The translations under genes were made by a program, and so were the position numbers. Below the pieces are notes generated by a model that saw only the letters and a list, made by a program, of their open reading frames with translations, was not told the origin of the DNA and ran no database searches. Shown one piece after another: positions 1-17,119 of a DNA stretch of 17,119 nt (position 1 is its first letter; each line of letters starts with the position of its first letter). The stretch is from NCBI GenBank assembly GCA_031414595.1, contig JANNVX010000099.1, positions 1 to 17,119 on the forward strand, read 5' to 3'. The stretch is from Deinococcales bacterium. Its GTDB lineage: Bacteria > Deinococcota > Deinococci > Deinococcales > JAAFIG01.

Positions 1-109
1 ATATCACTTGGCGACGAGTTTTTTCTTTGGCATCTTTGCACTGTTTGTAGTGTTTCTCGAGTTCTTCAGTCGTATGGTGGGCGGTTAGAGGTGTGCCTAA
101 TCTTGACAT
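1..109 (-). CDS. IS630-family transposase, N-terminal HTH region (partial, runs off the window start)
   Basis: Manual translation from ATG at 109: MSRLGTPLTAHHTTEELEKHYKQCKDAKEKTRRQVI... This resembles the 'H.s.EELe..Y+..kd..e+.r.qiIwl' N-terminus of IS630-type transposases. Too short for the ORF track. Confidence 0.6.
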   Translation of the reverse strand, partial: MSRLGTPLTAHHTTEELEKHYKQCKDAKEKTRRQVI

Positions 110-137
110 TCCTTATTATCTACCTAAAGTTGGTATA
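1..137 (-). mobile_element. Probable left end of an IS630-like insertion sequence
   Basis: TATA at 134-137 lies about 25 bp upstream of the transposase start (minus strand TATACCAACTTTAGG...). IS630 elements insert at and duplicate TA. The partner end is outside the window. Confidence 0.4.
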
Positions 138-183
138 AGACTCCAACAAAAACGTGTCCTGTATTGCCCTAATTTCTAATTCA

Positions 184-215
184 TGGACGAAAGCCTTTTA
201 TTAGGTTTTCGTCCA
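184..215. terminator. Stem-loop downstream of lutC, possible operon terminator
   Basis: TGGACGAAAGCCT-N6-AGGTTTTCGTCCA: 13-bp arms with one wobble/mismatch, about 90 bp after the lutC stop. No clear U-tract. Confidence 0.45.
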
Positions 216-302
216 CAAAACCTACCATTCAGCCCTACTCGAGCCGAGCGCGTCCAATCATCTCGAGCGCAGTTTCTTGTTTTGATCGCCAAACTATAAA
301 CC

Positions 303-932
303 CTACAAATCTGGCTCTAATTTCACCAACACAACCTCGAGAACCCTAGGACCATGCACCCCTTCTACCCGATTGAGTTCAATATCCGAGGTCGCGCTGG
401 GTCCTGAAATAAAAGTAATCGGTTGCCCAGCTTCAACACTCGAGTGCAGTCTCGAGATGGCGCTCGGTAAGTTATCCACAATATCACGCTCGAAAACCAC
501 ACAAATATGAATATCTGGAATCAAAGTCAAAGCCCGTCTGCCTTGGTGGGTGCTGTGATCAAGCACAATCGTACCAGTCTCGGCAATCGCCAGCCTTGAA
601 CCCGTCACCACCGCTTGGGCGTTCTCGAGTTCTCGTGGCTCGAGGTTTAAGTGGTCAATGATTTTCTCTACAGAGTTTGGCAACCAAGTCTCTGGGAGGT
701 CATGGGGTACAGCTATTTTTGTGATTTGTAAACGCTCAAGAATGTCTTTTATGGTCTTTTGAATGTCTTTAGTAATATGAACTCGAGCGCGATAATCCGA
801 AATGCGTTCCTCGAGTAAGTGTAGTACATCCTTTTCACCCGTCTTGAGTCGGTAATTTCGAGGAATAGTTGAGGTTTCTCGAGGTGTGCCAAGTGCGCTT
901 TTGATGGTACTGAGCATGGTTTCACGACTCAT
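303..932 (-). CDS. lutC: Lactate utilization protein C (LutC/YkgG/LldG, LUD domain)
   Basis: 209 aa with AIAETGTIVL, RALTLIPDIHI and FISGPSATSDIEL..VEGVHGP motifs. ATGA overlap with the lutB stop. Confidence 0.93.
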   Translation of the reverse strand: MSRETMLSTIKSALGTPRETSTIPRNYRLKTGEKDVLHLLEERISDYRARVHITKDIQKTIKDILERLQITKIAVPHDLPETWLPNSVEKIIDHLNLEPRELENAQAVVTGSRLAIAETGTIVLDHSTHQGRRALTLIPDIHICVVFERDIVDNLPSAISRLHSSVEAGQPITFISGPSATSDIELNRVEGVHGPRVLEVVLVKLEPDL

Positions 933-2353
933 GATTTACCTTTATTTTCACGCCACCAGCCTCTAAAGGCTTGTTGAGGAACACTCGGTAAGTCACGGCT
1001 GTTTGTCCAACCCGCTAATAAGCCCGGTAGACTCGAGATTTTATTATTTTTAGTCATTGGTATTTGTCCAACTCGAGCCGCTTTTTGGGCAAATTCATAG
1101 CGCTTAACATCCATAAACACCCATGCCATGCTTTTCAGGGCAGCCCCCTCGAGATTAAAGAATCCAGTTTTTCGTTCCACCACTTGTCCGCGCAAGTACA
1201 CCAGAATTTCTGGAATATTGATTTTGACAGGGCAGACTTCATAACATGCACCGCACAGACTCGAGGCAAACGGTAAACTCTGTGCATGGTCAGACTCGAG
1301 ACCAATCAGTTGTGGCGTAAGAATCGCCCCAATTGGACCGGGGTAAACACTGCCATACGCATGTCCGCCAGCCCGTTCATAGACGGGGCAGACATTCAAA
1401 CATGCCGAGCAGCGAATGCAGTGCAGTGCTTGCCGTCCGACTTCATCTGCTAGAACTTTGGTTCGTCCATTATCGAGCAGTACCAAATGAAATTCTTCTG
1501 GACCATCGCCCGTATGAACCCCTGTCCAAAGGCTGGTGTAGGGGTTCATCCGTTCGGCTGTGGATGACCTAGGAAGCAGTTGTAGCATCACCTCGAGGTC
1601 ACGCAGTTCTGGCAGGACTTTTTCAATCCCCATGATGCTGATTAAGACTTTGGGCAGGGTCAGGCACATGCGTCCGTTGCCTTCGGATTCGACCACACCA
1701 ACCGTTCCAGTCTCGGCGATGGCAAAATTTGCACCTGAAATTGCCACAGGCACAGTCAAAAACTTTTCTCTCAAGTATCGCCGTGCGACTTCGGCTAAAG
1801 CCCTTGGTTCATCGGTTAAGTCTTTTGGCTCGAGGTTAAAGGATTTTAAGAACAATTCCCGAATCTCAGCACGGTTTTTATGAATGGCTGGCACAAGAAT
1901 ATGGCTTGGGTGGTCATGAGCCAGTTGCACAATCAATTCGGCTAAATCGGTTTCAATTGCCGTAATGCCAGTCCCCTTCAGGGCATCGTTTAAGCCAATT
2001 TCATCGGTGGTGATGGATTTGATTTTGATGACTTCTTTGGCTTGGTGTGCTTTGACAATCCTCGAGACGATGTTGTTGGCTTCTAGCGCGTCGGTTGCCC
2101 AATGAATTTTTCCACCTGCTTTCTGTACACTCGCCTCGAGTTGCAGCAGAAGTTCTGGTAAACGCTGCATCGCGTTTTCTTTGATAGCTGCCCCAGCATC
2201 ACGAAGTTGTTGCCAATCGGGGAGTTCTGCCACCACCTTTAAGCGTTTTTCACGAATAGCAGTCGTGGCTTTACCAAGGTTACGGCGCAGTTGTGGATTC
2301 TCGAGGGCGATTTTAGCGGCTTCTTGGTAGGGTTTAGGATTAACAAAAGGCAC
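929..2353 (-). CDS. lutB: Lactate utilization iron-sulfur protein B (LutB/YkgF/LldF)
   Basis: ETDLAELIVQL..PSHILVPAIH motif and two 4Fe-4S motifs (CIRCSACLNVCP, SSLCGACYEVCP). Start reassigned to GTG at 2353, overlapping the lutA stop (TAGTG), giving 474 aa. Confidence 0.95.
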   Translation of the reverse strand: MPFVNPKPYQEAAKIALENPQLRRNLGKATTAIREKRLKVVAELPDWQQLRDAGAAIKENAMQRLPELLLQLEASVQKAGGKIHWATDALEANNIVSRIVKAHQAKEVIKIKSITTDEIGLNDALKGTGITAIETDLAELIVQLAHDHPSHILVPAIHKNRAEIRELFLKSFNLEPKDLTDEPRALAEVARRYLREKFLTVPVAISGANFAIAETGTVGVVESEGNGRMCLTLPKVLISIMGIEKVLPELRDLEVMLQLLPRSSTAERMNPYTSLWTGVHTGDGPEEFHLVLLDNGRTKVLADEVGRQALHCIRCSACLNVCPVYERAGGHAYGSVYPGPIGAILTPQLIGLESDHAQSLPFASSLCGACYEVCPVKINIPEILVYLRGQVVERKTGFFNLEGAALKSMAWVFMDVKRYEFAQKAARVGQIPMTKNNKISSLPGLLAGWTNSRDLPSVPQQAFRGWWRENKGKS

Positions 2354-3096
2354 TAAGCACCGCCTTCGGTCTGGGCAAGGATTTCGGCTAAATGCACGGT
2401 TCGTACACCAGTATTCATTTTTGATAAACCACCGTTTATTTGCATCAGACAAGAATTATCACCACCGGTACAAGTGTTGGCTTTGGTGTTGAGGATACAG
2501 CGCATTTTATCGGACAACATCGCGGTGCTGGTTTCAGGATTTTTGATGGCAAATGTTCCACCAAAACCACAACAGGATTCTGAATTCTCGAGCGGCATCA
2601 GTTCCAAACCACGGACGTTTTTGAGCAGTGTATAAGGTGCATCACCTAGGGCTAGGGTTCGCAAGCCATGACAAGAACTGTGATAGGTCACTCGGTGCGG
2701 ATAGTACGCCCCGACATCCTCGAGTTTAAGGACATTCACAATAAATTCGGATAACTCGAGGGTTTTACTGGCAATCACCTTGGCTCGAGACCCTAAAGCA
2801 GTGTCATGCGCCCATTCACAAACTTTAGTAAAGTATTCCCTGACCATTGCCACACATGAACCAGACGGCGAGACGATGTATTCAGTATCCTCTTTTTCAA
2901 ACACTTCAATAAAGCGCCGTACTATTTCTAGGGTCTCTGCTTGATAGCCAGAATTGAGGTGCATTTGTCCACAACAGGTTTGCTCGAGGGGGAATGATAT
3001 TTCACAGCCTAGTCGCTCGAGCAGCGCAACCGTAGCAATTCCAGTTTGCGGATAGAGCGTATCGTTTAAGCAAGTGATAAACAAAGAGATTTTCAT
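2353..3096 (-). CDS. lutA: Lactate utilization protein A, Fe-S oxidoreductase with CCG domains (LutA/YkgE/LldE)
   Basis: MKISLFITCL, QTCCGQ, SPSGSC, YHSSCH and CCGFGGTF motifs; 247 aa. Confidence 0.95.
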   Translation of the reverse strand: MKISLFITCLNDTLYPQTGIATVALLERLGCEISFPLEQTCCGQMHLNSGYQAETLEIVRRFIEVFEKEDTEYIVSPSGSCVAMVREYFTKVCEWAHDTALGSRAKVIASKTLELSEFIVNVLKLEDVGAYYPHRVTYHSSCHGLRTLALGDAPYTLLKNVRGLELMPLENSESCCGFGGTFAIKNPETSTAMLSDKMRCILNTKANTCTGGDNSCLMQINGGLSKMNTGVRTVHLAEILAQTEGGA

Positions 3097-4487
3097 TCGC
3101 GCCCCTGTGGTTCAAAAAAACTGAACGAATGTGTAGCTTGCATTAGCGACCTCCCAGTGCCTTGGGGAATGGATTTGGTTGCCTCGAGTTGAACCACCAG
3201 ATTACCACTCAGGGTGGCATCGGTCATACCCGCAATTACTGTTTTGCCTGTGGCATTGGCGGTCAGTTGATTCAGTAAACCAATTTGTGAGCCGCCCCCA
3301 ACAATAAAAATAGATTCGACAGGCGTACCACAAACCTGCTCGAGGTTTTGCAAAACAAGCGCATATTTGGTAGCTAAACTTTCTAAAATACAGCGCACCA
3401 ATTCGCCCCTCGAGTAAACACTCTTGCCCATTAAAGCACTGACTCGAGCAGGCATATCCAAACCAGGACTGAGAAAAATAGAATCGTCAACATCAATCCG
3501 AACTTCAAGGTTTAACGCTTCTGCTTCCGAATACAGCACTGACCAATCAGGATTATCCCAAGCACGACGGCATTCTTGGAGTATCCACAACCCCATGACG
3601 TTTTTCAGTAAACGATTGGTCTTGTAGACCCCTGCTTCGTTGGTGATATTCGCCTCGAGTGCGGCGCTGGTCAGCACGGCTTTCTTGGTCTCGAGTCCGA
3701 TTAAACTCCATGTGCCACTCGAGATATAAGCGCTGTGTTCGGTCAGTGGAATGGCTACTACAGCGCTGGCGGTGTCGTGTGTACCAACTGCAATCACTTC
3801 GGCTTGTTGTAAACCAAGTTCTTTGGCAAGGCTTGGGGTCAGTGTTCCAAGGTTTGTTCCAGCCTCTACAATCGGCGGCAGAAAATGACTGGGTAGCCCA
3901 AGTTTCTCGAGTAACCCAAGCGCCCAATTTCCAGTTGTGGCATCGTAAAACTGGGTGGTGCTGGCATTGGTGCGCTCACAGACTTTTTTTCCAGTCAACC
4001 AAAAATGCAGTAAGTCTGGTACAAGTAGCAGGGTTTTGGCTCGCTCGAGATGAGCTTCAGGAGTAACAAGCAACTGATACAAGGTATTAAACGGTAAGAA
4101 TTGCAAACCAGTTACTGCAAAAATTTCTTCTTTTGACAAGGCTACAGAATCCATCACCCCATTGGTTCGGGTGTCTCGGTAGCAATGCACACCATCTATT
4201 AAAGCATCAAATTCGTCCAGCAGTGCGTAATCTACTGCCCAAGAATCCACCCCGATGCTCAAAACCATGCCGCCCAGTGCTTCGGCTCGAGCCACTGCTA
4301 GGCTTAACCCAGTGCAAATTTCACGCCATAGGGCAATCACATCCCAGTAGAGAGCCGTACCAATCGGTGTACCACCATTCCAAAAACGGTGCAGTACCTC
4401 AACCTCGAGCTTATTGTTCTCGAGCCAACCCAGTGCCACACGCCCACCAGATGCGCCAAGGTCAATCGCAATATGAAAAGATTTCAC
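3093..4487 (-). CDS. rhaB: Rhamnulokinase (FGGY family)
   Basis: IAIDLGASGGRV, GVDSWAVDY, HDTASAV, YISSGTWSLIG and RLLKNVMGLWILQEC motifs. Start reassigned to GTG at 4487 (GTGA overlap with the upstream stop), giving 464 aa. Confidence 0.93.
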   Translation of the reverse strand: MKSFHIAIDLGASGGRVALGWLENNKLEVEVLHRFWNGGTPIGTALYWDVIALWREICTGLSLAVARAEALGGMVLSIGVDSWAVDYALLDEFDALIDGVHCYRDTRTNGVMDSVALSKEEIFAVTGLQFLPFNTLYQLLVTPEAHLERAKTLLLVPDLLHFWLTGKKVCERTNASTTQFYDATTGNWALGLLEKLGLPSHFLPPIVEAGTNLGTLTPSLAKELGLQQAEVIAVGTHDTASAVVAIPLTEHSAYISSGTWSLIGLETKKAVLTSAALEANITNEAGVYKTNRLLKNVMGLWILQECRRAWDNPDWSVLYSEAEALNLEVRIDVDDSIFLSPGLDMPARVSALMGKSVYSRGELVRCILESLATKYALVLQNLEQVCGTPVESIFIVGGGSQIGLLNQLTANATGKTVIAGMTDATLSGNLVVQLEATKSIPQGTGRSLMQATHSFSFFEPQGRE

Positions 4488-6559
4488 CGCGTGAACGCCC
4501 CAGCGTTCCCTGCATCCACATTGAGGATATTGCCTGTGCTTTTGCCAGAATGCGTTTCGGAAGAAAAAAAGTAAATCGCTTCGGCAATATCTTCGGGAAA
4601 GACATTTCGTTTCAGCATACTGCGGTTGCGGTACAGTTCCTCGAGGTCGGTTTCTTCGATTTTGTAGGCGGCAGCGCGTTGGGCTTTCCATTCACCACTC
4701 CAGATTTTACTGCCACGCAGCACCGCATCTGGATTAACGGAATTGACCCGCACACCATCACTGGCAAGTTCCAAGGCAAGACATCTGGCAAGGTGCAATT
4801 CGGCGGCTTTGGCGGTGCAGTACGCACTGGCGTTAGGACTGGCGACCAAGGCATTTTTACTGGCAACAAAGATGATACTTCCACCCAGTTTTTGTTGTTT
4901 AAGTAATTTTGTGGCTTCTCTCGAGATTAAAAAATAGCCCGTGGTCAGCACCGAAATGTTTTTATTCCACATCTCTAAACTGGTTTCTTCAATTGGCGCA
5001 CTCGAGGCGATTCCAGCATTTGAAACCAGAATATCTAAGCCGCCGTACTCGAGAGCAGCAAAAGCAATACTATTGGCGACTTCGGATTCTACTATCATGT
5101 TGGCTTGGACACCGCGCACCACATCCGTTCCGAATTGTTGACCAAGTTCTTGTACTGCCGCCTCGAGGCTGCTCTGGTCAATGTCTGCCAGCACCACACA
5201 TGCACCTTCGGACAGTAAACGAATGGCAGTAGCACGTCCGATTCCACCCGCGCCCCCCGTCACTAAGGCAATTTTACCCGCCAGCGTTTTTGGCTTAGGC
5301 ATCCGTTGTAGTTTGGCTTCCTCGAGCAACCAGTATTCAATATCAAAAGCCTCTTGTTCGGGTAGCCCGACATAATTGCTAACCCGTTCAGCTTCACGCA
5401 TGACGTTAATGGCGTTCTGGTAATACTCGGATGCAATTCTTGCGGTGGCTTTATTGGCGGCAAAAGTCAGCATCCCGACACCAGGAATCAAGTAGACGAC
5501 TGCGTTGGGGTCACGCATTTTTGGCGAGTTCGGGCGTTTACAACGTTCAAAATAAGCACTGTAAAAGGCTCGGTAATGCTCGAGTTGTGCCTCTAAACCT
5601 GGTAAAAACACATCAGGATTAAACTGGTCAAATTCGAGGACAAGCGGCGCGATTTTAGTCCGCAAAAAATGGTCTGGGCAACTTGTACCAAGGGTAGCCA
5701 GACGCTCTAAATCAGTGCTACAAACAAACTCGAGAATGGCTGGGTCATCGCAGAAATGCCCAATTTTAGATTCTAAACTCGAGATTTTCCCACGAAGAAT
5801 CGGCAATAATCTGGTCACAAGCTCAAAACGGGATTCTTGAGGCAAAGCCGTTATTTTTGCACCACCAAAGGCTGGTTTGTCGTGCGTCTCGAGCCAAGTG
5901 CTGCACTGATTGATAATCTCGAGGGTGATTTGATAACAGTCTTTGGCGATGTCCGCCCAAGTGAACAACCCATGTCCACCCAGAATTAACCCGACTAAAT
6001 TTTTGTCTTGTGCGGCTGCCTCGAGTTTTAGCCCTAAATCGTAGCCGGGTCGTTGCCACGGTAGCCAACCGATTTTTCCTGCAAAAATTTCTTGGGTTAG
6101 GCGCTGACCGTCTTTACTGGCGGCTATCGCAATAATCGCATCAGAATGCACATGGTCTACGTGTTTGTACGGCACATAAGCATGAAGCGGCGTGTCTATG
6201 CTGGCGGCTCGAGGATTTAGGTTGAAGGTGCAGTGCGGTAAAAAAGCCACCATTTCGTCTTCAAATTCTAAACCCCGATAACGGTTTTTTAGTGCCTCGA
6301 GCTTGGACATGTAGAGCGTACTAAAGCCGTCTAAGCCAAGGCTGCCGAGGTCGCCGCCACTGCCTTTGACCCACAACACTTCGACTGTTTCGCTGCTTAG
6401 AGGGTCAGTCTCGAGAACCTTGGCGCTGGTGTTGCCACCGCCATAATTGGTGATGCGTTTGTCCGAACCCAGTAAATTCGAGCGGTAACGCAAAAGTTCA
6501 GACTCGCTTAGGCTCGCGGCAGTTTGGTCGTTCCATAAATTGGGCAATTGATTTGTCAT
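4484..6559 (-). CDS. rhaD: Bifunctional rhamnulose-1-phosphate aldolase / short-chain (lactaldehyde) dehydrogenase (RhaEW type)
   Basis: N-terminal class II aldolase (GGGNTSAK, VKGSGGDL, SIDTPLH, HVDHVH, GTSCPDHFLRTK) fused to an SDR domain (VTGGAGGIG, SNAG, YCTAK). RBS AAGGA upstream. Confidence 0.94.
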   Translation of the reverse strand: MTNQLPNLWNDQTAASLSESELLRYRSNLLGSDKRITNYGGGNTSAKVLETDPLSSETVEVLWVKGSGGDLGSLGLDGFSTLYMSKLEALKNRYRGLEFEDEMVAFLPHCTFNLNPRAASIDTPLHAYVPYKHVDHVHSDAIIAIAASKDGQRLTQEIFAGKIGWLPWQRPGYDLGLKLEAAAQDKNLVGLILGGHGLFTWADIAKDCYQITLEIINQCSTWLETHDKPAFGGAKITALPQESRFELVTRLLPILRGKISSLESKIGHFCDDPAILEFVCSTDLERLATLGTSCPDHFLRTKIAPLVLEFDQFNPDVFLPGLEAQLEHYRAFYSAYFERCKRPNSPKMRDPNAVVYLIPGVGMLTFAANKATARIASEYYQNAINVMREAERVSNYVGLPEQEAFDIEYWLLEEAKLQRMPKPKTLAGKIALVTGGAGGIGRATAIRLLSEGACVVLADIDQSSLEAAVQELGQQFGTDVVRGVQANMIVESEVANSIAFAALEYGGLDILVSNAGIASSAPIEETSLEMWNKNISVLTTGYFLISREATKLLKQQKLGGSIIFVASKNALVASPNASAYCTAKAAELHLARCLALELASDGVRVNSVNPDAVLRGSKIWSGEWKAQRAAAYKIEETDLEELYRNRSMLKRNVFPEDIAEAIYFFSSETHSGKSTGNILNVDAGNAGAFTR

Positions 6560-6584
6560 GTTTGTTCCTTATATACGCTAAAAA

Positions 6585-7769: not shown

Positions 7770-7778
7770 GGTGTCTCC

Positions 7779-8605: not shown

Positions 8606-8657
8606 ACCTCTGGTATTCATGCCAGAACTTCGTGTCTCGAGTAAATGGATGAAAGCA

Positions 8658-10016: not shown

Positions 10017-10072
10017 AGAAGGTATTCTGACATAGAGTTAAGTGCCAAAACCAACAGGTATGATAAAAGCAC

Positions 10073-11230
10073 ATGGGGCTTCTCGAGTTTTATAACCTAA
10101 CCACACGACAAACCGAGTTCGTACTTTTAGCCAAGCACCTGGCTTCGAGCATGGCATCTCGAGCGGGTCTGTTTGACCAAAATGGCGAATTGCCAATCAG
10201 CAGTTTTACCGAATTAAAACAGAGCGCCTATCCAAAATTAACTGTTCCAGAGGCTTTTGGTGGACTTGGTGCGAATCTGCTCGAGTTTGTGCTGGCACAG
10301 ATTTGTTTATCCCAAGGCGATGCGGCTGTGGCTTTAACGGCTGCCATGAATGCCCATGTGATTGGTGGTGTAGCTGAATCTGGGGCTTGGAGTCTCGACA
10401 TCTCGAGTCGGATTTTTAAGGAAATCGTTACTCGAGGGGCGTTAATCAACGCGCTGGCTTCCGAACCAGAATTAGGCAGTCCATCTCGAGGTGGGGCGTT
10501 TCGCACAGTGGCAGAAAAAGTGGCGGGAGGCTGGCGATTATCGGGGCGTAAAAATTGGACGACTGGCGGGACTTGCCTAGATTTTTTCTTGGTTCATGCG
10601 TCATTGATTGGGGTTCTCGAGCCTACAGGACGAATGATTGTGCCAGTAAACGCTGACGGGGTGCGCTTTGAAAAAACTTGGATGGATGCCCTGAGCCTGC
10701 GTTCAAGTGCGGCGGATGATGTGGTTTTTGACCATGTTTTTGTTCCAGACTCGGACTTTATTGCCCCAACTGCCCCAAGTTCATCTGGTACAGCTTGGTT
10801 TTGGGCAGCCATAGCAGCCACTTATTTAGGAATTGGCATTGCTGCCCTTAATGAAGTGGTGCGGTACACAAAAACTCGAGTACCAACGGCGTTAGGTAAG
10901 CCAATCTCGAGTTTAGCAGGGGTGCAACAAAAAATTGGTTTGATTGAACTGACCTTAAAAGCGGCTCAGACAATGCTCTTTGAAACTTGTGAGCGCTGGG
11001 TGACATCGGAATCTCGAGACGAACTTCTGCCCGCTTTGGCTGGGGCAAAGTATTTATCTACCAATGCGGCTGTGACCGCCACAGATTTGGCGCTTCGGGT
11101 GGCGGGTGGCAATGCCCTGACCCGAGTTTTGAGTTTAGAGCGGCACTTTCGGGATGCTCGGGCTGGCTTGGTGCATCCGCCAAATGATGAAACTGCCCTC
11201 GAGATGATTGGACGCGCTCGGCTCGAGTAG
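10073..11230 (+). CDS. Acyl-CoA dehydrogenase family flavoprotein
   Basis: VPEAFGGLG, ASEPELGSPSRGG, LSGRKNWTTG, VVFDHVFVP and LERHFRDARAGLVHPP motifs. TATGAT at 10059-10064 lies 8 nt before the ATG. Confidence 0.9.
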   Translation: MGLLEFYNLTTRQTEFVLLAKHLASSMASRAGLFDQNGELPISSFTELKQSAYPKLTVPEAFGGLGANLLEFVLAQICLSQGDAAVALTAAMNAHVIGGVAESGAWSLDISSRIFKEIVTRGALINALASEPELGSPSRGGAFRTVAEKVAGGWRLSGRKNWTTGGTCLDFFLVHASLIGVLEPTGRMIVPVNADGVRFEKTWMDALSLRSSAADDVVFDHVFVPDSDFIAPTAPSSSGTAWFWAAIAATYLGIGIAALNEVVRYTKTRVPTALGKPISSLAGVQQKIGLIELTLKAAQTMLFETCERWVTSESRDELLPALAGAKYLSTNAAVTATDLALRVAGGNALTRVLSLERHFRDARAGLVHPPNDETALEMIGRARLE

Positions 11231-11260: not shown

Positions 11261-11503
11261 CTAAATACGTTGTGCTAAAAGAGTAATCGTGCGACCAAAG
11301 TACAAAATACTACGGTCAACACGATTATCTTGCAGGATGACTAAATCCGCAAATCCCATAGTACCCCAAACCCAAGACCAAATCACCCTTTCACTGCTTG
11401 AGCAGAAACCCAGTAGTTTCAATTTTTGGAGTCCTGCAATCAGTACGGTAATCACGGTTATATCAATCGTTAGAATCACATAAAGCATCGTTTTGACCTT
11501 CAT
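11261..11503 (-). other. Small hypothetical ORF or decayed continuation of the orphan stalk gene
   Basis: 80-aa ORF with an ATGA overlap to the upstream stop and a hydrophobic N-terminus. No recognisable family. Confidence 0.25.
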
Positions 11504-12058
11504 ACAAACAAAGACTTCACTGCCACACTCCCCACAGGCTTAACACTCGAGACTGGCGGCGTAACACTGCTAACACTCGAGGCACTAGGACTACTAACAC
11601 TCGAGACTGCACTCGGACTCGAGACACTAGCATTTGAACTGGTCACACTACTGGCATTCACACTTGGGGCAGTTGGAACACTATTTGGACTCGAGACACC
11701 AGAAGCAGTTACAGCTACCCCACTTGGAGCGGCTTGACTTGGGGCTTGGAGTGGGGTCACGGTGCTTCCTGTTGTACCAATGGTTGGACTCGAGACTGGG
11801 TTAGATGTGTTGGTTGGACTCGAGGGTGCTGGGGTTTGGGCTGTGGTTGTACCAATGGCTGGACTCGAGACTGCTGGGCTTGGATTGCTCGAGGTTTGTG
11901 TGCCGTTGGCTGGACTCGAGATTGGGTTACTGGCTGGTGCTGGACTACTTGGACTCGAGACTCCTGTGGTTGGACTTGTGACATTGCTGGCGCTATTGCT
12001 GGGTGGTGGGTTGCTCGAGCTTGGGCTGGTCACGCTCGAGGCGGTGGTGATTCTCGAG
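11500..12058 (-). pseudogene. Orphan fragment of the Ser/Thr/Pro-rich toxin stalk
   Basis: Encodes VSSP repeats and is nearly collinear with the stalk at the right end of the window (TPLQAPSQAAPSGVAVTAS...VTPPVSSVKPVG). It stops a few codons after homology ends. The first ~13 codons of the tracked ORF look like intergenic sequence. Confidence 0.65.
11534..11824. repeat. Direct repeat A, copy 1 (matches about 16787-17092)
   Basis: Long shared tracts, e.g. GCTACCCCACTTGGAGCGGCTTGACTTGGGGCTTGGAGTGGGGTCACG, with small in-frame indels between the copies. Confidence 0.9.
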
Positions 12059-12078
12059 AATTTTTCACAGCGCCTTGC

Positions 12079-12107
12079 TTCACAAGGATAGTCTATCATG
12101 TTATGCT
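12079..12107 (+). promoter_or_regulatory. Sigma70-type promoter for the small-protein gene
   Basis: TTCACA (12079-12084), 17-nt spacer, TATGCT (12102-12107), with an extended -10 TG. Confidence 0.5.
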
Positions 12108-12840: not shown

Positions 12841-13619
12841 CTATGCCCTCCGAGGCTACCAGTCGTCGTAACATATTGACTCTGTGCTGGAGAAAGCTTC
12901 CAACCACTAACAAACTCTCCTGCTGGATTCACCATGACGTTATTTCCTGTAATTGGATTGAAGTAATGTGTTACCGGATTTCCTAAATAAGTTCCACTAA
13001 TTACGAGAGTATTTGGATCAGCAATGTGTGATTGTAATGCCTGTTGAAAGATACCACCAGCTTGGCTATTAAAGTTTCCAGGTACTCCAAAATCTGCTGC
13101 GTGCTTAAACTTTTTCTGAAGTTGGGTCGGATCAAATGTGACACTGCAATTATGAACTAATCACTGCCCATCACCCACAAAATACGTGCCAGCCCCTTGC
13201 ACACTGATATTCCAAACCACTTCCACTCGAGCCGTGCATTTCACCTCGAGAACTCGACCCTCCCCACTCGAGCGGCGTAACACATCACCTTTCACAAGGT
13301 CTTTAGTTCCAACCCAATGGGATGAGAGGTTTTCGTGTCCCTCGGCTTTTGGTCGTGGGGTCTTATTCCCAAATTTCTGCACAAAGAACGGATGTTCAGC
13401 CGTGGTTTCAATCACCTCGAGTTGCTTGGAGTTCGTCTCGAGTTTTAGTCCATAGACTGGTTTTTCATGACTGCGTACATCAGTGATTTCATAAGTCCCT
13501 TTAGAATCGGAACTTTCGTCATAAGCAAGGACTTTATCGCCAATTTGTAAACTCGAGATTGCCACGGCTGTTAAGATGGTCTTCCCGACTTTCTTAAGGG
13601 TTTGGGTCAGGGTCTTCAT
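12837..13619 (-). pseudogene. Orphan Hint plus colicin D-like tRNase toxin module, interrupted by an in-frame TGA at 13161-13163
   Basis: The frame continues after the stop: LVHN|CSVTFDPTQLQKKFKHAADFGVPGNFNSQAGGIFQQALQSHIADPNTLVISGTYLGNPVTHYFNPITGNNVMVNPAGEFVSGWKLSPAQSQYVTTTGSLGGHR*. The paralog has TGG (Trp) at this position. The first Hint strand is missing. Confidence 0.85.
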
Positions 13620-13646
13620 GGGTTTTAGTCTACTCGAGTCTTGGCT
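13149..13646. repeat. Direct repeat B, copy 1 (Hint region; matches 15472-15969, offset 2323)
   Basis: About 500 bp, collinear with no net indel, roughly 90-95% identical by eye. Similarity ends at the HN|C junction. Confidence 0.92.
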
Positions 13647-13716
13647 GGTTATGCTCGAGAATAATGTAAGTATTTTAACTCTAGGAAAACCAAATTTGCT
13701 CTGCTACGATTCTATC

Positions 13717-14592
13717 ATGATGAACACCTTTATTAACCCCTTTACCGATTTTGGATTTAAGAAAATCTTTGGGGAGGAAGCCAGTAAACCTCACTTAATT
13801 GATTTCCTTAATTCCCTACTGCCAGATGATGCCAAAATAGCTGATTTGAGTTTCAAGAACCTCGAGCAACTGCCCCGCTCTGAGGATGAACGCAAAGCTG
13901 TTTACGACATTTACTGCCAAGGCGTGAATGGTGAGTATTTTATTGTTGAATTGCAGAAAGTAAAACAAATTAACTTTAAGGACAGAACCATTTATTACTC
14001 GAGTTTCCCAATTCAAGACCAAGCACCCAAAGGAGACTGGGATTACCTGCTTCATCCCGTGTATTGCGTTGGTGTTTTAGGCTTTACCTTCGATGATAGC
14101 AAAGCCAATCGAACAGAAGTGGTTCATAAGGTTGAACTCAAAGACCAGAACAATGAAGTATTCTACAAAAAACTCACTTTTATTTATCTCGAGATGCCAA
14201 ATTTTCATAAGCCACTCGAGCAATTAGAAACACGCCTAGACAAGTGGTTGTACTTCTTAAAGAACTTAGTAGACTTACAACAGATTCCAGAATTGTTTAA
14301 GGAAGAAGCGTTTTTGTCTGCCTTTGAAACAGCTAAATACGCGAATCTCGAGCCGAGTGAACGAGATAGTTATGAACAAAGCCTGAAAATTATGCGAGAT
14401 AATTACTCGGCGTTCAAATCAGCAAGAGAAGAAGGGTTGCTCGAGGGGGAAGCTCGAGGGGAAGCTCGAGGGGAACTGAATGCCAACTTAAAGACAGCCC
14501 GAAACCTAAAAGCCTTGGGGATGAGCTTGGAGCAAATCGCAGATGCAACGGGTCTGAGTGAAGAGAGTTTAAGGCAGAACGGAATTTCTTAG
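13717..14592 (+). CDS. Rpn family recombination-promoting nuclease / PD-(D/E)XK putative transposase (PDDEXK_2 type)
   Basis: FINPFTDFGFKKIFG, YDIYC...FIVELQ, RTIYY, LDKWLYFLK, EGEARGEARGE repeats and a C-terminal ARNLKALGMSLEQIADATGLS HTH. Start reassigned to ATG 13717, 6 nt after TGC-TACGAT. Confidence 0.92.
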   Translation: MMNTFINPFTDFGFKKIFGEEASKPHLIDFLNSLLPDDAKIADLSFKNLEQLPRSEDERKAVYDIYCQGVNGEYFIVELQKVKQINFKDRTIYYSSFPIQDQAPKGDWDYLLHPVYCVGVLGFTFDDSKANRTEVVHKVELKDQNNEVFYKKLTFIYLEMPNFHKPLEQLETRLDKWLYFLKNLVDLQQIPELFKEEAFLSAFETAKYANLEPSERDSYEQSLKIMRDNYSAFKSAREEGLLEGEARGEARGELNANLKTARNLKALGMSLEQIADATGLSEESLRQNGIS

Positions 14593-14606
14593 CCTCGAGA
14601 GAAACT

Positions 14607-14634
14607 AAACCCCGCTTGAGATAGCGGGGTTTTT
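14607..14634 (+). terminator. Rho-independent terminator, possibly bidirectional
   Basis: AAACCCCGCT-TGAGAT-AGCGGGGTTT-TTT, lying between convergent genes. Confidence 0.85.
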
Positions 14635-14803
14635 ACTGGCTCGAGATTTTGTGATTTGCTACTACACAAGCACCAAGGGCAGGCTCGAGATGCGGTCATT
14701 TGTGGAGCAAGCACAGACATTGTGGTGTGATGTGATTGCGACCCTAAAACTAAGGCTTCAAGGACGAGAATTACGAGCTAAAATTCAGTAAAGTTGATTT
14801 GTT

Positions 14804-15163
14804 TCATGAATTTTCCAACTCAAGCCACTTAGAACTTTGTGTATATCGAACAGGAAACGAGCGCAATCGCTCAAGTATTTCATTTCTTAATGACTGAATG
14901 GTTTGTTGAAAACTTTCTTCCGAAAACTTTAGACTTTCGTAGTCTTCGAGAAACAAAGTTTTATGTAGCATTAAAATAGTAGATTCGTTGAAATCCATTG
15001 ACTTCAAAACGTCAATACAGTACGGGTTAAACAACCGATCACCAAAAAAATCTAAAGCATTTCTGTCAAAAGACACCAAATCAAGTGTGCCTAAAAGTAC
15101 AGTGAGAAAGAGAACTTCGCTCTCAAAAGGTGCATCTTTAGACAAAATAAGTCTGGGAATCAT
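14804..15163 (-). CDS. Putative immunity protein, DUF3969-like
   Basis: 119 aa; ATGA overlap with the toxin stop. 'LG.L.......LFNPY....L.......I..LH....LED.ESL' pattern recalled for DUF3969. Confidence 0.7.
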   Translation of the reverse strand: MIPRLILSKDAPFESEVLFLTVLLGTLDLVSFDRNALDFFGDRLFNPYCIDVLKSMDFNESTILMLHKTLFLEDYESLKFSEESFQQTIQSLRNEILERLRSFPVRYTQSSKWLELENS

Positions 15164-17119
15164 TTTCTCCCCTGTCCCGGTTTACTAATACCTGGTTTGA
15201 GCTTAGGGTCAAACACTTGACCAGTTTTAACATTGGTAAAGAAATGAAACGATACTGGATTTCCATTTGCATCAAATCCATCCATATATACTTTACGCCA
15301 ATCACTAACACTGCCTGCTCCGGGAGTTGACGAAATTAGCTCTAGTACACCCAAATTATCGATTGCGACTTGACGAGCCGTTCCCGCCGCACCATCGGCT
15401 CGAGTCCAACCAATTGTATTCAATCCTTCTAATGCACTTTTTCGACCACTAAAAATCGTATTGATAGCACAATTATGAACTAACCACTGCCCATCGCCCA
15501 CAAAATAAGTCCCAGCCCCTTGCACACTGATATTCCAAACCACTTCGACTCGAGCCATGCGTTTCACCTCGAGAACACGACCCTCACCACTCGAGCGGCG
15601 TAACACATCACCTTTCACAAGGTCTTTTGTTCCAACCCAATGGGATGACAGGTCTTCGTGTCCTTCGGCTTTTGGTCTTGGAATCTTATTTCCAAATTTC
15701 TGCACAAAGAACGGGTGTTCAGCCGTGGTTTCTATCATCTCGAGTTGCTTGGTATTCGTCTCGAGTTTTAGTTCATAAATTGGTTTTTCATGACTGCGAA
15801 CATCAGTGATTTCATAAGTCCCTTTGGTATCTGTGCTTTCGTTATAGGCAAGGACTTTATCGCCAATTTGTAAACTCGAGATTGCCACGGCTGCAAGGAT
15901 GGCTTTCCCGACTTTCTTAAGGGTTTGGGTCAGGGTCTTCATGGGTTTTAGTGTACTCGAGTCTTGGCTTTGACGCATCACCCAGACTTTGGTGTTCTTG
16001 GTGAAACTATTGACACAACTTATTAACCGTTTTGTTCCGCCTCGTATCCAATCCATAAAGGCATCTAATCCTCTTGCTCCTGCTTTCACGCCTTTAGAAC
16101 CAATTCCTCCCGTAAACAAACCAAATAAACCAAGGGCAACTGAGCCACCTCGAGCCAACCAGTCGAGTTGTTCACCTGTCATGGTCTGACCAAACAAACC
16201 TTCAATAATACCTTTGCCATCACCAACAAAAGGAACAAAATCAAGAATCATACTGGCAGCTTGTCCAGCCACATTACTTGTGTTGCTATTACTGGGCGTT
16301 CCGTTGAATAAAGGACGATTAAAAATAGCGGCGGCATCACTTGGAGATTTACCAATACTTTGATCAAGTCGTTTCCACCAATCAGCAAAAGCATTAAATT
16401 CTTTGAGATTCATTTTACCAGCACTCAGCAAAGCCGATACGCCACGCCATAAAGCAATTTTAGCTTCTGGATTAGCTCTTTTGTACATTCCAGATTCAAT
16501 AATATTGGTGATTGAATCCTTTTCTAAACAAGTTCCAGGGCAATTTAATTCAAGGCGTTTCAACAGTGTTTTCGCATGTAAAAACGAAAGATTGGCTATT
16601 TCTTGAACGGTTTTACCACCACTGTTATTGATTTGGGTTTCTAACCAATCAGCTTTATCTTGTAAATCCTTAGCATCTGGTTCACACGTGTCTTTTTTGG
16701 TCATTTCAAACTCGTAACTGGTATCGGCTTGCCAAGTGCAATTGAAATTGACTAAAACAAAGGCTTGTGGTTTAACAGTCACACCAACAGGCTTGACACT
16801 CGAGACAGGCGGCGTAACACTACTAACACTCGAAGCCGCACTACTCGAAGATGGACTACTAACACTCGAGACTGCACTTGGACTCGAGACACTGGCGTTT
16901 GGACTGGTCACACTACTGGCTGTCACACTTGGGGCATTAGGAACACTATTTGGACTCGAGACACTAGAAGCTGTTACGGCTACCCCACTTGGAGCGGCTT
17001 GACTTGGGGCTTGGAGTGGGGTCACGATGCTTCCTGTTGTACCAATGGCTGGACTCGAGACTGGGTTAGATGCTGTGCTGGTTGGACTCGAGACTCCTGT
17101 ACTTGGGGTGGTGACGGGG
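15160..17119 (-). CDS. Polymorphic toxin (5'-partial): S/T/P-rich stalk, unknown domain, PT-TG, Hint, C-terminal toxin
   Basis: The frame is open to the window end (PVTTPSTGVSSP...). PT-TG-like LDFVPFVGDGKGIIEGLFGQTMTGEQLDW; Hint from NSFTKNTKV through TTAEHPF to YFVGDGQWLVHN|C; 103-aa tip at 15160-15471. Confidence 0.88.
   Translation of the reverse strand, partial: PVTTPSTGVSSPTSTASNPVSSPAIGTTGSIVTPLQAPSQAAPSGVAVTASSVSSPNSVPNAPSVTASSVTSPNASVSSPSAVSSVSSPSSSSAASSVSSVTPPVSSVKPVGVTVKPQAFVLVNFNCTWQADTSYEFEMTKKDTCEPDAKDLQDKADWLETQINNSGGKTVQEIANLSFLHAKTLLKRLELNCPGTCLEKDSITNIIESGMYKRANPEAKIALWRGVSALLSAGKMNLKEFNAFADWWKRLDQSIGKSPSDAAAIFNRPLFNGTPSNSNTSNVAGQAASMILDFVPFVGDGKGIIEGLFGQTMTGEQLDWLARGGSVALGLFGLFTGGIGSKGVKAGARGLDAFMDWIRGGTKRLISCVNSFTKNTKVWVMRQSQDSSTLKPMKTLTQTLKKVGKAILAAVAISSLQIGDKVLAYNESTDTKGTYEITDVRSHEKPIYELKLETNTKQLEMIETTAEHPFFVQKFGNKIPRPKAEGHEDLSSHWVGTKDLVKGDVLRRSSGEGRVLEVKRMARVEVVWNISVQGAGTYFVGDGQWLVHNCAINTIFSGRKSALEGLNTIGWTRADGAAGTARQVAIDNLGVLELISSTPGAGSVSDWRKVYMDGFDANGNPVSFHFFTNVKTGQVFDPKLKPGISKPGQGRK
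15472..15969. repeat. Direct repeat B, copy 2
   Basis: Matches 13149-13646. Confidence 0.92.
16787..17092. repeat. Direct repeat A, copy 2
   Basis: Matches 11534-11824; built from (GG/AC)ACTCGAGAC units. Confidence 0.9.

What the first reader, a model, noticed from the sequence alone, without database searches (positions are those of the whole stretch)
56..17092. CTCGAG behaves as a HIP1-like highly iterated palindrome (about 35-fold over-represented)
Seen: about 147 CTCGAG by manual count (may be off by a few), one per ~115 bp, versus about 4 expected for a random 6-mer. It occurs in all three frames (LE, SR/SS, xR dipeptides), in genes on both strands and in intergenic DNA, so amino-acid demand does not explain it. 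Known: cyanobacterial HIP1 (GCGATCGC) shows this behaviour and is associated with methyltransferases recognising its core. CTCGAG is the XhoI/PaeR7I site, and restriction sites are usually avoided. Inference: the host has a dedicated process (methylation-linked mutation or repair bias, recombination, DNA uptake or nucleoid binding) that creates or maintains this motif, in an apparently non-cyanobacterial lineage.
Basis: partly seen in the sequence, partly recalled or inferred. Interest (0 to 1): 0.85.

Follow-up and report, generated by a model that had tools for sequence, protein, structure and literature searches.

The report
Hyper-abundant CTCGAG palindrome, cause unknown
This bacterium and its whole family carry the six-letter palindrome CTCGAG about once every 190 bases, often enough to have changed their proteins, and none of the enzymes usually blamed for such repeats explains it.

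Summary
The genome holds 23,235 (1 per 193 bp, 24x base composition, 68x a motif-masked Markov model). The excess survives a shuffle that keeps each protein and its codon usage (20,600 vs 2,010). Density is equal in coding and non-coding DNA. Independently assembled contigs reproduce the sequence. All 18 other genomes of the family, in 5 genera with 47-59% GC, share the trait.

This scan had already reported the motif on other DNA, including another contig of this genome. New here:
- The trait is switched on or off inside a second family: two congeners have 7.0 and 8.6 sites/kb, the third 0.3/kb.
- It is a turnover equilibrium, not a set of preserved ancient sites.
- It doubled Leu-Glu in the proteome in two independent lineages.
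- No orthologue group in six methyltransferase Pfam families, nor Vsr, tracks it.

It is a HIP-like element, but denser than HIP1 and without HIP1's conserved methylase. The reader protein and the mechanism remain unidentified. I found no publication.

The parts
56..17092 (.). 147 exact CTCGAG sites, one per 116 bp; 138 lie in ORFs (all three frames, both strands) and 9 are intergenic
   Evidence: positions and shuffles; frame, strand and gene assignment
303..11230 (.). Catabolic cluster (lutC, lutB, lutA, FGGY kinase, aldolase-SDR fusion, isomerase-like, DeoR, aldehyde dehydrogenase, acyl-CoA dehydrogenase) carrying 93 sites. These genes were used for the orthologue site-conservation tests.
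   Evidence: Pfam; per-gene counts 8, 10, 6, 13, 14, 10, 6, 14, 12; conservation against 15 relatives
4484..6559 (-). Aldolase-SDR fusion gene with 15 sites, against a mean of 0.9 (maximum 6) in 80 proteobacterial orthologues. At about half of the sites the orthologue consensus is another residue (Met-Glu, Phe-Glu or Val-Glu where this gene has Leu-Glu).
11500..12099 (-). orf199, a Ser/Pro/Thr-rich low-complexity ORF with 14 sites, all read as Ser-Ser (frame 2)
   Evidence: translation and counts; no Pfam family
13576..14592 (+). PD-(D/E)XK family transposase gene with 10 sites per kb, so resident mobile DNA is saturated too
8636..8641 (.). Example of an intergenic site, between the DeoR and aldehyde dehydrogenase genes

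Best explanation
CTCGAG is a highly iterated palindrome of the HIP type, kept at a dynamic equilibrium by a force that acts on each site of the DNA itself.

Shown:
- The exact 6-mer, and only it, is enriched, with the sharpness expected of a restriction-enzyme-like dimeric reader.
- The force is the same in coding and non-coding DNA and flat along genes.
- Spacing is random.
- The force is strong enough to override codon choice (log-odds about 4.5) and to double the Leu-Glu dipeptide.
- Sites turn over, with gains equal to losses.
- DNA that arrived recently lacks the motif.
- The trait is on or off between congeners, so one or a few gainable and losable genes should determine it.

Inferred: the determinant is a CTCGAG-specific DNA-reading protein that is still unidentified. 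I think it most likely biases which allele is transmitted during recombination, either between genome copies or after DNA uptake. Site-bearing alleles would then replace one-off variants (a molecular drive). This is similar to what is now argued for cyanobacterial HIP1, but here without a conserved methyltransferase and without Vsr-type repair.
For: Sharp specificity: the perfect word is 23,235 against 341 expected from a 3rd-order Markov model trained on the motif-masked genome (68x). All 18 one-off variants have O/E 0.48-1.95, with transitions highest, as a mutational halo would be. The flanks show no consensus.

DNA-level force: 5.15 sites/kb in coding and 5.37/kb in non-coding DNA. DNA with no open frame of 60 or more codons on either strand holds 373 sites in 87.6 kb, where 12.7 are expected. 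The profile across gene starts and ends is flat at about 5.2/kb, rising to 6.8-7.8/kb around stop codons. Spacing is exponential (CV^2 0.98) and the only periodicity is 3 nt.

Strength: coding sequences hold 20,600 sites against 2,010 +/- 56 after a synonymous shuffle. 60% of 20,434 Leu-Glu dipeptides are spelled CTCGAG, where 1.6% is expected. LE has O/E 2.23, the highest of 400 dipeptides, while EL has 0.98. Occupancy of synonymously reachable sites is 0.60, 0.47 and 0.37 in frames 0, 1 and 2.

Equilibrium: against G005 (122,880 bp, 92.7% identity) 616 sites are shared, 73 are only in G000 and 69 only in G005. Conservation is 0.894 against 0.699 for control hexamers. Against G013 (174 orthologues, 63% nucleotide identity) 215 of 956 sites are shared, against 0.077 for controls. 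But where both genomes keep Leu-Glu (n=541), joint occupancy is 0.285 against 0.271 expected under independence.

Incoming DNA lacks the motif: only 15 gaps of 1.8 kb or more exist, all at GC 0.32-0.44. The four annotated are a polysaccharide island, a clostripain locus, toxin-tip/SUKH cassettes and a block of small unknown ORFs.

Discrete determinant: all 18 other family genomes carry 4.3-6.8 sites/kb at 47-59% GC. In genus g36, G253 has 7.0/kb, G310 has 8.6/kb and G197 has 0.3/kb. The proteome signature recurs in G253 (LE O/E 2.45, 83% spelled CTCGAG) but not in G197 (1.15, 6.6%).

By analogy only: methylated HIP1 sites raise transformation efficiency and behave like Chi (abstract of bioRxiv 10.1101/2024.09.10.611283), and an uptake-signal role is proposed (abstract of PMC13756078).
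Against: No reader protein was identified, and nothing here shows recombination or uptake bias directly. ComEC and DprA are present in carriers, in the non-carrier G197 and in the motif-avoiding genus g7 alike, so they do not discriminate. A drive based on uptake of fragments should saturate near one site per recombined fragment. Reaching 5 per kb would need very short tracts or a bias that grows with the number of sites. Xu et al. (abstract of PMC5861425) read site conservation in HIP1 as evidence for selection rather than biased repair, and my conservation data cannot separate the two. I could not assign specificity to any methyltransferase. Every carrier holds several methylases of unknown target, so non-orthologous CTCGAG methylases are not excluded. 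All family genomes but one are incomplete draft assemblies (57-94% complete).
Confidence: 0.4

Rival explanations
1. Methylation-linked origin, as in Elhai's model for HIP sequences. A CTCGAG-specific methyltransferase marks the sites, and methyl-directed repair or recombination converts near-cognate sequences into the motif. The methylase would have to belong to different classes in different carriers, or to an unrecognised family.
For: Elhai 2015 (PMC4390886; abstract and passages) reports that every cyanobacterial genome with a HIP also has a methylase predicted for that word. CTCGAG-specific m5C methylation exists in nature: Halorubrum sp. BOL3-1, 533 of 560 sites (PMC8112702, table passages). 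Every carrier examined holds several methylases of unknown specificity: G000 has more than 20, and the closed G013 has 1 C5, 4 N6_Mtase-type and 2 D12. The same word recurs in unrelated lineages, which would fit a mobile specificity module of R-M type.
Against: No orthologue group tracks the trait. The two TaqI-type methylases of G000 have orthologues in 2 of 18 family genomes each. G010 has no C5 methylase and G013 has no beta-class one. Local clustering finds no cluster shared by all six family genomes sampled. The atypical C72 protein has true orthologues in 3 of 18. D12 methylases are heterogeneous; the one in G000 sits beside a MutH/Sau3AI-family gene in a genome that avoids GATC (0.14x), and G196 has none. 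The large gamma-class fusion proteins of carriers are only 22-36% identical. Halorubrum methylates CTCGAG without being enriched for it. The inner CpG position changes only about 1.5x more often than the outer C, so there is no clear m5C deamination signature.
Confidence: 0.2
2. Direct, additive selection on each site as a binding site for an abundant chromosomal protein (nucleoid organisation, DNA protection or a 'self' mark), with no transmission bias.
For: Sites are lost about 3x more slowly than control hexamers at 7% divergence. The strength (log-odds about 4.5) is in the range that weak selection on thousands of sites can produce. Xu et al. infer selection and a nucleoid-structure role for HIP1 (abstract). 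tRNA genes resist the motif (7 sites against 27.5 expected at genome density), so it does compete with other constraints.
Against: Spacing is exponential, with no preferred distance and no helical or longer periodicity up to 600 bp. A structural role would more naturally constrain spacing. Architectural proteins usually read fuzzy sites, whereas here one-off variants are at background. G197, a congener of the densest carriers, does without the motif. I could not test the 10-90 kb periodicity reported for HIP1 because the contigs are too short.
Confidence: 0.2
3. Biased mismatch repair or gene conversion in cis. A sequence-specific repair nuclease or glycosylase corrects mismatches in near-cognate sites towards CTCGAG, as Vsr does for CCWGG in E. 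coli. No uptake or exchange between cells would be needed.
For: The force acts per site, is independent of gene context and is at equilibrium. 79 of 86 single-step differences between close relatives are transitions, the class that mismatch correction handles. From my own knowledge, not from a call: VSP repair is known to raise CCWGG in E. coli.
Against: The Vsr family (PF03852) is found in 0 of 19 family genomes, although the control detects it in E. coli, B. subtilis and Caulobacter. Known VSP effects are under about 2-fold (recalled), not 24-68x. All six positions would have to be corrected. No candidate enzyme was found.
Confidence: 0.15
4. No dedicated process: the excess is a by-product of base composition, codon or dipeptide preference, dispersed repeats, or an assembly artefact.
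For: In high-GC relatives, codon usage alone gives many CTCGAG. In G019 (59% GC, 1.5 sites/kb) the log-odds is only 0.37 and LE has O/E 1.08. The apparently intermediate counts of several genera may therefore be largely compositional.
Against: In this genome the excess is 10x over a shuffle that keeps proteins and codon usage and 29x in ORF-free DNA. The flanks are random, so this is not a repeat family. The density is the same at 47% and 59% GC. Contigs assembled independently from public runs match the window with 0 differences over 3.7, 2.5 and 4.8 kb, and a second study holds fragments. 19 separate assemblies, one of them closed, agree.
Confidence: 0.01

Closest known systems
HIP1 (GCGATCGC) and the alternate HIPs of cyanobacteria (Elhai 2015, PMC4390886; Xu, Lawrence & Durand 2018, PMC5861425)
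   Same: A short exact palindrome, hyper-abundant genome-wide and clade-wide, found in genes and between them. Sites are conserved above background. The word can differ or be missing in related genomes. The function is unresolved.
   Different: The word is 6 bp and 67% GC, not 8 bp and 75% GC or more. The density is about 5,200 per Mb, against the 1,000-2,000 per Mb Elhai gives for HIPs (passage). The whole hexamer is the unit: TCGA-core variants are not enriched, whereas the CGATCG core of HIP1 is. No conserved cognate methylase was found, whereas DmtA and DmtC go with HIP1 (abstracts). The phylum is different. The proteome is rewritten (Leu-Glu doubled). CTCGAG does not occur in Elhai's text (0 occurrences).
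DNA uptake sequences (DUS of Neisseriaceae, USS of Pasteurellaceae); the comparison rests on my own knowledge, not on a call
   Same: Over-represented short words spread through the core genome, found in all reading frames with effects on peptides, scarce in recently acquired islands, and explicable by molecular drive without any benefit per site.
   Different: DUS and USS are 9-12 nt, not palindromic and occur about once per kb. Here the word is a 6-bp palindrome at about 5 per kb. Uptake bias is untested here. ComEC and DprA do not discriminate carriers from non-carriers.
XhoI/PaeR7I-type restriction-modification target (CTCGAG)
   Same: The same word and the same sharp discrimination against one-off sites.
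   Different: Restriction targets are normally avoided. This genome avoids about 30 other 6-bp palindromes at O/E below 0.07, yet CTCGAG is 24x enriched. No XhoI-family endonuclease was detected in G000 or in 5 other genomes, but the control search was silent everywhere, so this is weak. No conserved methylase was found.
VSP-repair-driven excess of CCWGG in E. coli (recalled from my own knowledge)
   Same: A repair bias that raises the frequency of a methylase target word.
   Different: Vsr was found in 0 of 19 family genomes. The effect here is more than ten times larger and involves all six positions.

Membership tests
Highly iterated palindromes (HIP class, sensu Elhai 2015 and Xu et al. 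2018) | An exact short palindrome, hyper-abundant genome-wide (15- to 300-fold in Xu et al., abstract) | tested here: met
   23,235 sites: 24x base composition, 68x a motif-masked Markov model, and the top 6-mer by 3x
Highly iterated palindromes (HIP class, sensu Elhai 2015 and Xu et al. 2018) | Present within and between ORFs and not explained by peptide or codon demand | tested here: met
   5.15 against 5.37 sites/kb; 29x in ORF-free DNA; 10x over a synonymous shuffle
Highly iterated palindromes (HIP class, sensu Elhai 2015 and Xu et al. 2018) | Sites conserved between genomes above background | tested here: met
   0.894 against 0.699 (G005), 0.83 against 0.28 (G007), 0.225 against 0.077 (G013). 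Between genera, however, occupancy at conserved Leu-Glu is independent (0.285 against 0.271).
Highly iterated palindromes (HIP class, sensu Elhai 2015 and Xu et al. 2018) | A methyltransferase specific for the word is present in every genome that has it (Elhai abstract) | tested here: inconclusive
   No orthologue group in PF07669, PF12950, PF01555, PF00145, PF02384 or PF02086 spans the carriers. Each carrier holds methylases whose specificity cannot be read from sequence with these tools.
Highly iterated palindromes (HIP class, sensu Elhai 2015 and Xu et al. 2018) | GC-rich word, 75% GC or more (Elhai, passage; TCGATCGA is noted there as an exception) | tested here: not met
   CTCGAG is 67% GC
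Highly iterated palindromes (HIP class, sensu Elhai 2015 and Xu et al. 2018) | Periodic density along the chromosome at 10-90 kb (Xu et al. abstract) | not tested
   Only distances up to 600 bp were examined, and only the 3-nt period appeared. The contigs, and the 400 kb of the closed relative that I held, are too short for a fair test.
DNA uptake sequences (DUS/USS) | Preferential uptake of DNA that carries the word | not testable with these tools
   This needs transformation assays in a cultured carrier
DNA uptake sequences (DUS/USS) | Uptake machinery present in carriers and tied to the trait | tested here: inconclusive
   ComEC and DprA were found in 9 of 10 genomes, including the non-carrier G197 and the motif-avoiding g7. 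Only the 58%-complete G310 gave no match.
Type II R-M target (XhoI/PaeR7I type) | Cognate endonuclease and methylase present; site avoided or neutral | tested here: not met
   PF04555 gave no match in G000 or in 5 other genomes, but the control was silent. No conserved methylase was found. The site is 24x enriched instead of avoided.
Vsr / very-short-patch repair bias | Vsr endonuclease present | tested here: not met
   PF03852 matched in 0 of 19 family genomes, while the control detected it in 3 named genomes

The most novel reading that the evidence does not exclude
A genome-wide sequence drive that is independent of methyltransferases. On this reading, an unknown CTCGAG-specific reader protein, gained or lost even between species of one genus, makes site-bearing alleles win during recombination or repair. 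It has written about 23,000 copies of its word into each genome (3% of all bases). It has also added on the order of 10,000 extra Leu-Glu dipeptides to the proteome. That figure is my extrapolation from LE O/E 2.23 against the 1.15-1.18 baseline of the non-carrier G197. This would be a new class of selfish or self-marking genome signal, and the clean on/off contrast in genus g36 makes its gene findable.
Probability: 0.3. Interest if true: 0.9.

Novelty: new variant of a known kind. Interest (0 to 1): 0.8.

Why it matters
Highly iterated palindromes have been an open puzzle in cyanobacteria for three decades. This is a second, independent and several-fold denser case in another phylum.

Three features make the problem more tractable here:
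- The apparent absence of a conserved cognate methylase separates the phenomenon from the explanation that dominates HIP1 work.
- The trait is on or off between congeners (G253 and G310 against G197). It is also present in a whole family across 47-59% GC. A phylogeny-aware gene presence/absence scan therefore has a realistic chance of naming the determinant.
- The force is strong enough to be measured directly: log-odds about 4.5 on codon spelling, Leu-Glu doubled, gains equal to losses. Models of drive and of selection can be fitted to these numbers.

There are practical consequences too. Gene finders, codon models and horizontal-transfer detectors will be biased in these genomes. XhoI would cut their DNA into fragments of about 200 bp unless the sites are modified.

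Tried and rejected
1. XhoI endonuclease family (PF04555) in G000 and in G013, G011, G253, G196 and G197: no match, but the control search matched in none of the 14 named genomes, so the result is uninformative.

2. NCBIfam scan of the methylase candidates: the call failed on an out-of-range coordinate for L082 and I did not repeat it.

3. Two TaqI-type methylases of G000 (C89, C4) as the cause: rejected because they are sporadic.

4. Atypical 424-aa methylase-like protein on C72: sporadic. It matched in 6 of 18 genomes, with true orthologues in 3. Its PDB matches cover only the SAM-binding motif.

5. D12 (Dam-type) methylases: present in 17 of 18 family genomes but heterogeneous. In G000 the gene is paired with a MutH/Sau3AI-family gene, and GATC is avoided, so it most likely acts on GATC. 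G196 has none.

6. Large gamma-class fusion methylases: present in all carriers tested and absent from G197, but only 22-36% identical to one another, so not a shared determinant.

7. Vsr: absent.

8. ComEC and DprA: not discriminating.

The densest of the 80 loci I examined are 58-71% GC, where codon usage alone gives the word, so I learned nothing about phages of this family.

10. G019 and other 'intermediate' genera of family f2: by the log-odds measure G019 is not a real carrier (0.37). I did not test the other intermediate genera, and I rest no claim on G265, which is flagged as unpublished.

11. m5C deamination signature: differences at the inner CpG position outnumber those at the outer position only 37 to 25, which is not significant.

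12. Tracing substitutions step by step between G253 and G197: not possible, because they are only 63-72% identical in DNA.

13. Runs X5-X8 hold only small shares of the window (0.08-0.15). When laid, they give short pieces at 85-100% identity. I draw no conclusion about habitat from them.

14. Supplementary tables of the HIP papers were not opened. They may list further alternate HIP words.

Full report
OBSERVATION. The window holds exactly 147 CTCGAG, from 56-61 to 17087-17092. Dinucleotide-preserving shuffles give 2.92 +/- 1.77 (maximum 9), and 0 of 200 reach 147. Of the sites, 138 lie in ORFs, in all three frames on both strands, and 9 are intergenic.

GENOME-WIDE. The window is contig C99 of a 4,488,778-bp, 120-contig assembly with 47.2% GC. 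CTCGAG occurs 23,235 times, once per 193 bp. It is the most frequent 6-mer by about threefold. The next ones are its own overlaps, at most 7,481, and then AAAAAA at 5,616. That is 24x the base-composition expectation of 972 and 68x the 341 expected from a 3rd-order Markov model trained on the motif-masked genome. Every one of the 105 contigs over 5 kb is dense, at 116-392 bp per site, and the window's contig is the densest. 69% of all TCGA lie inside CTCGAG. All 18 one-off variants have O/E 0.48-1.95 and the transitions are the highest, which looks like a mutational halo. Discrimination of this sharpness is what one expects from a restriction-enzyme-like or methylase-like dimeric reader. That last point is an inference.

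I called 3,885 ORFs of at least 100 aa by a greedy longest-ORF rule.
- Coding DNA has 5.15 sites/kb and the rest 5.37/kb.
- DNA with no open frame of 60 or more codons on either strand (87.6 kb, 40% GC) has 373 sites where 12.7 are expected.
- Within coding sequences, 20,600 sites are observed. Shuffling synonymous codons within each gene, which keeps each protein and each gene's codon usage, gives 2,010 +/- 56. Shuffling codon order gives 946 +/- 31.
- A strictly dicodon-preserving shuffle would keep in-frame CTC-GAG by construction, so it is not a meaningful test for a 6-mer.
- The informative statistic is context dependence. 60% of 20,434 Leu-Glu dipeptides are spelled CTCGAG. Yet CTC is 7.9% of Leu codons not followed by Glu, and GAG is 20.1% of Glu codons not preceded by Leu, which predicts 1.6%. 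That is a log-odds of 4.53.
- Occupancy of synonymously reachable sites is 0.60, 0.47 and 0.37 in frames 0, 1 and 2.
- Contigs assembled independently from public runs match the window with 0 differences over pieces of 3.7, 2.5 and 4.8 kb. These runs are possibly the source sample. Runs of a second study hold fragments.
- Together with 19 separate assemblies, this excludes an assembly artefact.

PROTEOME EFFECT. Leu-Glu has O/E 2.23, the highest of all 400 dipeptides. Glu-Leu has 0.98 and Ser-Ser, the frame-2 reading, has 1.51. In the window's aldolase-SDR gene there are 15 sites, against a mean of 0.9 (maximum 6) in 80 proteobacterial orthologues. At about half of the sites the orthologue consensus is a similar but different residue. 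For example, Met-Glu in 34 of 80, Phe-Glu in 39 of 80 and Val-Glu in 42 of 80 stand where this gene has Leu-Glu. tRNA genes resist the motif: 7 sites in 5.3 kb against 27.5 expected at genome density.

DISTRIBUTION ALONG THE DNA. Spacing is almost exactly exponential (CV^2 0.98). The only periodicity up to 600 bp is the 3-nt codon signal. The profile across gene starts and ends is flat at about 5.2/kb, with a modest rise to 6.8-7.8/kb around stop codons. Only 15 gaps of 1.8 kb or more exist, all at GC 0.32-0.44. The four I annotated are a polysaccharide-synthesis island, a clostripain locus, polymorphic-toxin tips with SUKH immunity genes, and a block of small unknown ORFs. I infer that recently imported DNA lacks the motif and resident DNA has acquired it. 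Resident mobile DNA is saturated: the PD-(D/E)XK transposase gene in the window has 10 sites per kb.

WHO HAS IT.
- All 18 other genomes of the same family (5 genera, 57-94% complete, one closed) carry 4.3-6.8 sites/kb.
- The closed genome G013 has 59% GC against 47% here. It avoids a different set of palindromes, yet has 4.7 sites/kb. The motif is therefore decoupled from base composition and from the variable restriction repertoire.
- In a sample of 301 genomes of the phylum, the large genus g7 has few sites, mostly fewer than 1,000 per genome. The 2.1-2.4-Mb genus g9 has about as many as of the control word GAGCTC. Several genera of families f2 and f5 look intermediate.
- The log-odds measure separates real carriers from composition effects: G000 4.53, G253 4.53, G196 2.72, G013 2.32, G019 0.37, G197 -0.25.
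- The key finding is in another family, f3. Genus g36 has three genomes. G253 has 7.0 sites/kb, G310 has 8.6/kb and G197 has 0.3/kb, which is the random level. G196, of the neighbouring genus g35, has 3.6/kb.
- G253 and G197 are equally far from G000 (median amino-acid identity 47% and 44% in small samples, against about 67% within the family). So this is a separate lineage.
- The proteome signature recurs there. In G253, LE has O/E 2.45 (the top dipeptide) and 83% of LE is spelled CTCGAG. In G197 the figures are 1.15 and 6.6%.
- The trait therefore behaves as a discrete state that can be gained or lost.

DYNAMICS.
- Against the closest relative G005 (122,880 aligned bp, 92.7% identity), 616 sites are shared, 73 are only in G000 and 69 only in G005. 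Gains and losses balance. 89.4% of sites are conserved against 69.9% of control hexamers. 79 of 86 single-step differences are transitions.
- From the window's genes alone, conservation against frame-matched controls is 0.83 vs 0.57 (G005), 0.83 vs 0.28 (G007), 0.58 vs 0.12 (G009 and G011) and 0.23 vs 0.045 (G010). In the outgroups it is 2 of 24 (G019), 0 of 51 (G024) and 1 of 12 (G025).
- At larger scale, 174 orthologue pairs with G013 (63% nucleotide identity) share 215 of 956 sites (0.225) against 0.077 for controls. But among the 541 positions where both genomes keep Leu-Glu, both have the motif in 28.5%, against 27.1% expected if the two were independent.
- Between genera, then, the sites have turned over. 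What is maintained is the occupancy, not particular ancient sites. This qualifies the simple statement that the sites are conserved.
- One unexplained detail: motif/non-motif pairs between G000 and G005 differ at 3 or more of the 6 positions in 24 of 138 cases, against 6.8% of control hexamers (P 2e-5). In low-divergence flanks it is 5 of 45 against 4.3% (P 0.04). This looks like switching between two spellings, for example CTCGAG and TTAGAA, with short-lived intermediates. It also partly tracks locally divergent segments.

SEARCH FOR THE CAUSE.
- The genome is rich in methyltransferases: 9 Eco57I-type, 9 N6_N4 and 5 C5 matches. It avoids about 30 of the 64 six-base palindromes at O/E below 0.07.
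- The two methylases with TaqI architecture have orthologues in only 2 of 18 family genomes each.
- In five further family genomes from five genera, C5 methylases were found in 4 of 5 (none in G010). Beta-class ones were found in 4 of 5 (none in G013). N6_Mtase and D12 matches were found in 5 of 5. Local clustering finds no cluster shared by all six genomes.
- An atypical 424-aa candidate is sporadic.
- D12 methylases occur in 17 of 18 but are heterogeneous. The one in G000 sits beside a MutH/Sau3AI-family gene in a genome with GATC at 0.14x, so I read it as a GATC system. G196 has none.
- Large gamma-class fusion proteins are present in all carriers tested and absent from G197, but they are only 22-36% identical to one another.
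- Vsr is found in 0 of 19 family genomes, with a working control.
- The XhoI endonuclease family gave nothing, but its control was silent.
- ComEC and DprA are present in carriers and non-carriers alike.
- I could not assign specificities, so non-orthologous CTCGAG methylases remain possible. Methylation of CTCGAG does exist without enrichment in Halorubrum (PMC8112702, table passages).

INTERPRETATION.
Shown: a DNA-level, per-site force with sharp 6-bp palindromic specificity. It is at equilibrium. It is strong enough to rewrite codons and residues. It is absent from imported DNA. It is switched on or off between congeners.
Inferred: one or a few genes encode a CTCGAG-specific reader. My preferred mechanism (confidence 0.4) is a transmission bias during recombination, between genome copies or after uptake. 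This follows the current reading of HIP1 as a transformation-enhancing or Chi-like signal (abstracts), but without the conserved methylase.
The rivals are methylation-linked repair with non-orthologous methylases (0.2), direct selection for a chromosomal binding site (0.2), cis-acting biased mismatch repair (0.15) and composition or artefact (0.01).

COMPARISON AND NOVELTY. The closest known thing is the HIP class of cyanobacteria. This case shares hyper-abundance, presence in and between genes, and conservation above background. It differs in the word (6 bp, 67% GC), in density (about 5,200 per Mb against the 1,000-2,000 per Mb given for HIPs) and in phylum. It also lacks an enriched core, shows an apparent lack of a conserved cognate methylase, and has a measurable effect on the proteome. 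CTCGAG is not mentioned in Elhai 2015 (0 occurrences). Four full-text searches found no report of CTCGAG hyper-abundance. Papers in subscription journals and supplementary files were not searchable. Within this scan the motif had been reported before: 8 notes in at least 7 genomes, one of them on another contig of this genome. Those notes name no mechanism. I class it as a new variant of a known kind.

LINEAGE. Earlier notes call the lineage uncultured Deinococcales. My own check is limited. IF-2 aligns end to end, and best (627 bits against about 440 for the next group), with the 571-aa chains 5lmv_a and 3j4j_A. I recall those as Thermus thermophilus. HIP1 is essentially absent, since CGATCG occurs 3 times.

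Noticed in passing
window 1-141: This stretch is repeated at 99-100% identity at the ends of at least 12 other contigs of the same assembly (C5, C6, C17, C26, C31, C42, C44, C52, C75, C80, C114, C115). It is a multicopy repeat or IS end that breaks the assembly.
   Followed up: no
window 12094-12200: A segment of about 105 bp recurs at 73-89% identity in many contigs of G001, G003, G005, G006 and G007. It looks like a MITE.
   Followed up: no
window 234-284 and 11181-11231: A 51-bp inverted repeat (92% identity) brackets the whole 11-kb lut/rhamnose-type catabolic cluster. The same pair appears in G001, G004 and G005. It could be a pair of shared terminators or the ends of a mobile unit.
   Followed up: no
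whole genome G000: The genome avoids other palindromes to an extreme degree. About 30 of the 64 six-base palindromes have O/E below 0.07 (GGGCCC 0, TGCGCA 2, CGATCG 3 copies). GGCC is at 0.01x and GATC at 0.14x. The genome also holds more than 20 methyltransferase genes. The closed relative G013 avoids a different set.
   Followed up: partly
G000 and nearly all carriers: GAGCTC, the same two half-sites in the swapped order, is nearly absent from nearly all carriers: 6 in G000, 30 in G253, 2 in G310 and 0-25 in most family genomes. Exceptions are G002 (114), G012 (161) and G010 (568), and G196 has 1,197. This may be a separate SacI-type restriction pressure, or it may be linked to whatever reads CTCGAG.
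   Followed up: no
window 11500-12099 (-) and 16784-17092: orf199 is a Ser/Pro/Thr-rich low-complexity ORF with no Pfam family. Its 14 CTCGAG sites all encode Ser-Ser. An 89%-identical copy forms the start of the polymorphic-toxin gene at the end of the window.
   Followed up: partly
window 13161-17118: Polymorphic-toxin cassettes (PT-TG and PT-HINT domains, DUF3969) with a PD-(D/E)XK transposase gene between them. The PT-HINT segment is duplicated, with the same site spacing at 13.2-13.66 kb and 15.5-15.96 kb.
   Followed up: no
G000 contig C1, about 26.9-28.5 kb (L366:2405-3984): A D12-class adenine methylase gene is followed directly by a MutH/Sau3AI-family gene, in a genome that avoids GATC. 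This is probably a GATC restriction-modification pair or a Dam/MutH-type pair.
   Followed up: partly
G000 contig C56, about 0.1-3 kb: An array of at least 14 tRNA genes lies within about 3 kb. Five of the seven tRNA genes that contain CTCGAG are in it.
   Followed up: no
window 4484-6559 (-): The aldolase-SDR fusion gene is 63-70% identical to orthologues from Rhizobium, Devosia, Massilia and other Proteobacteria. The catabolic cluster may therefore have been acquired by horizontal transfer, yet it is now saturated with the motif.
   Followed up: partly
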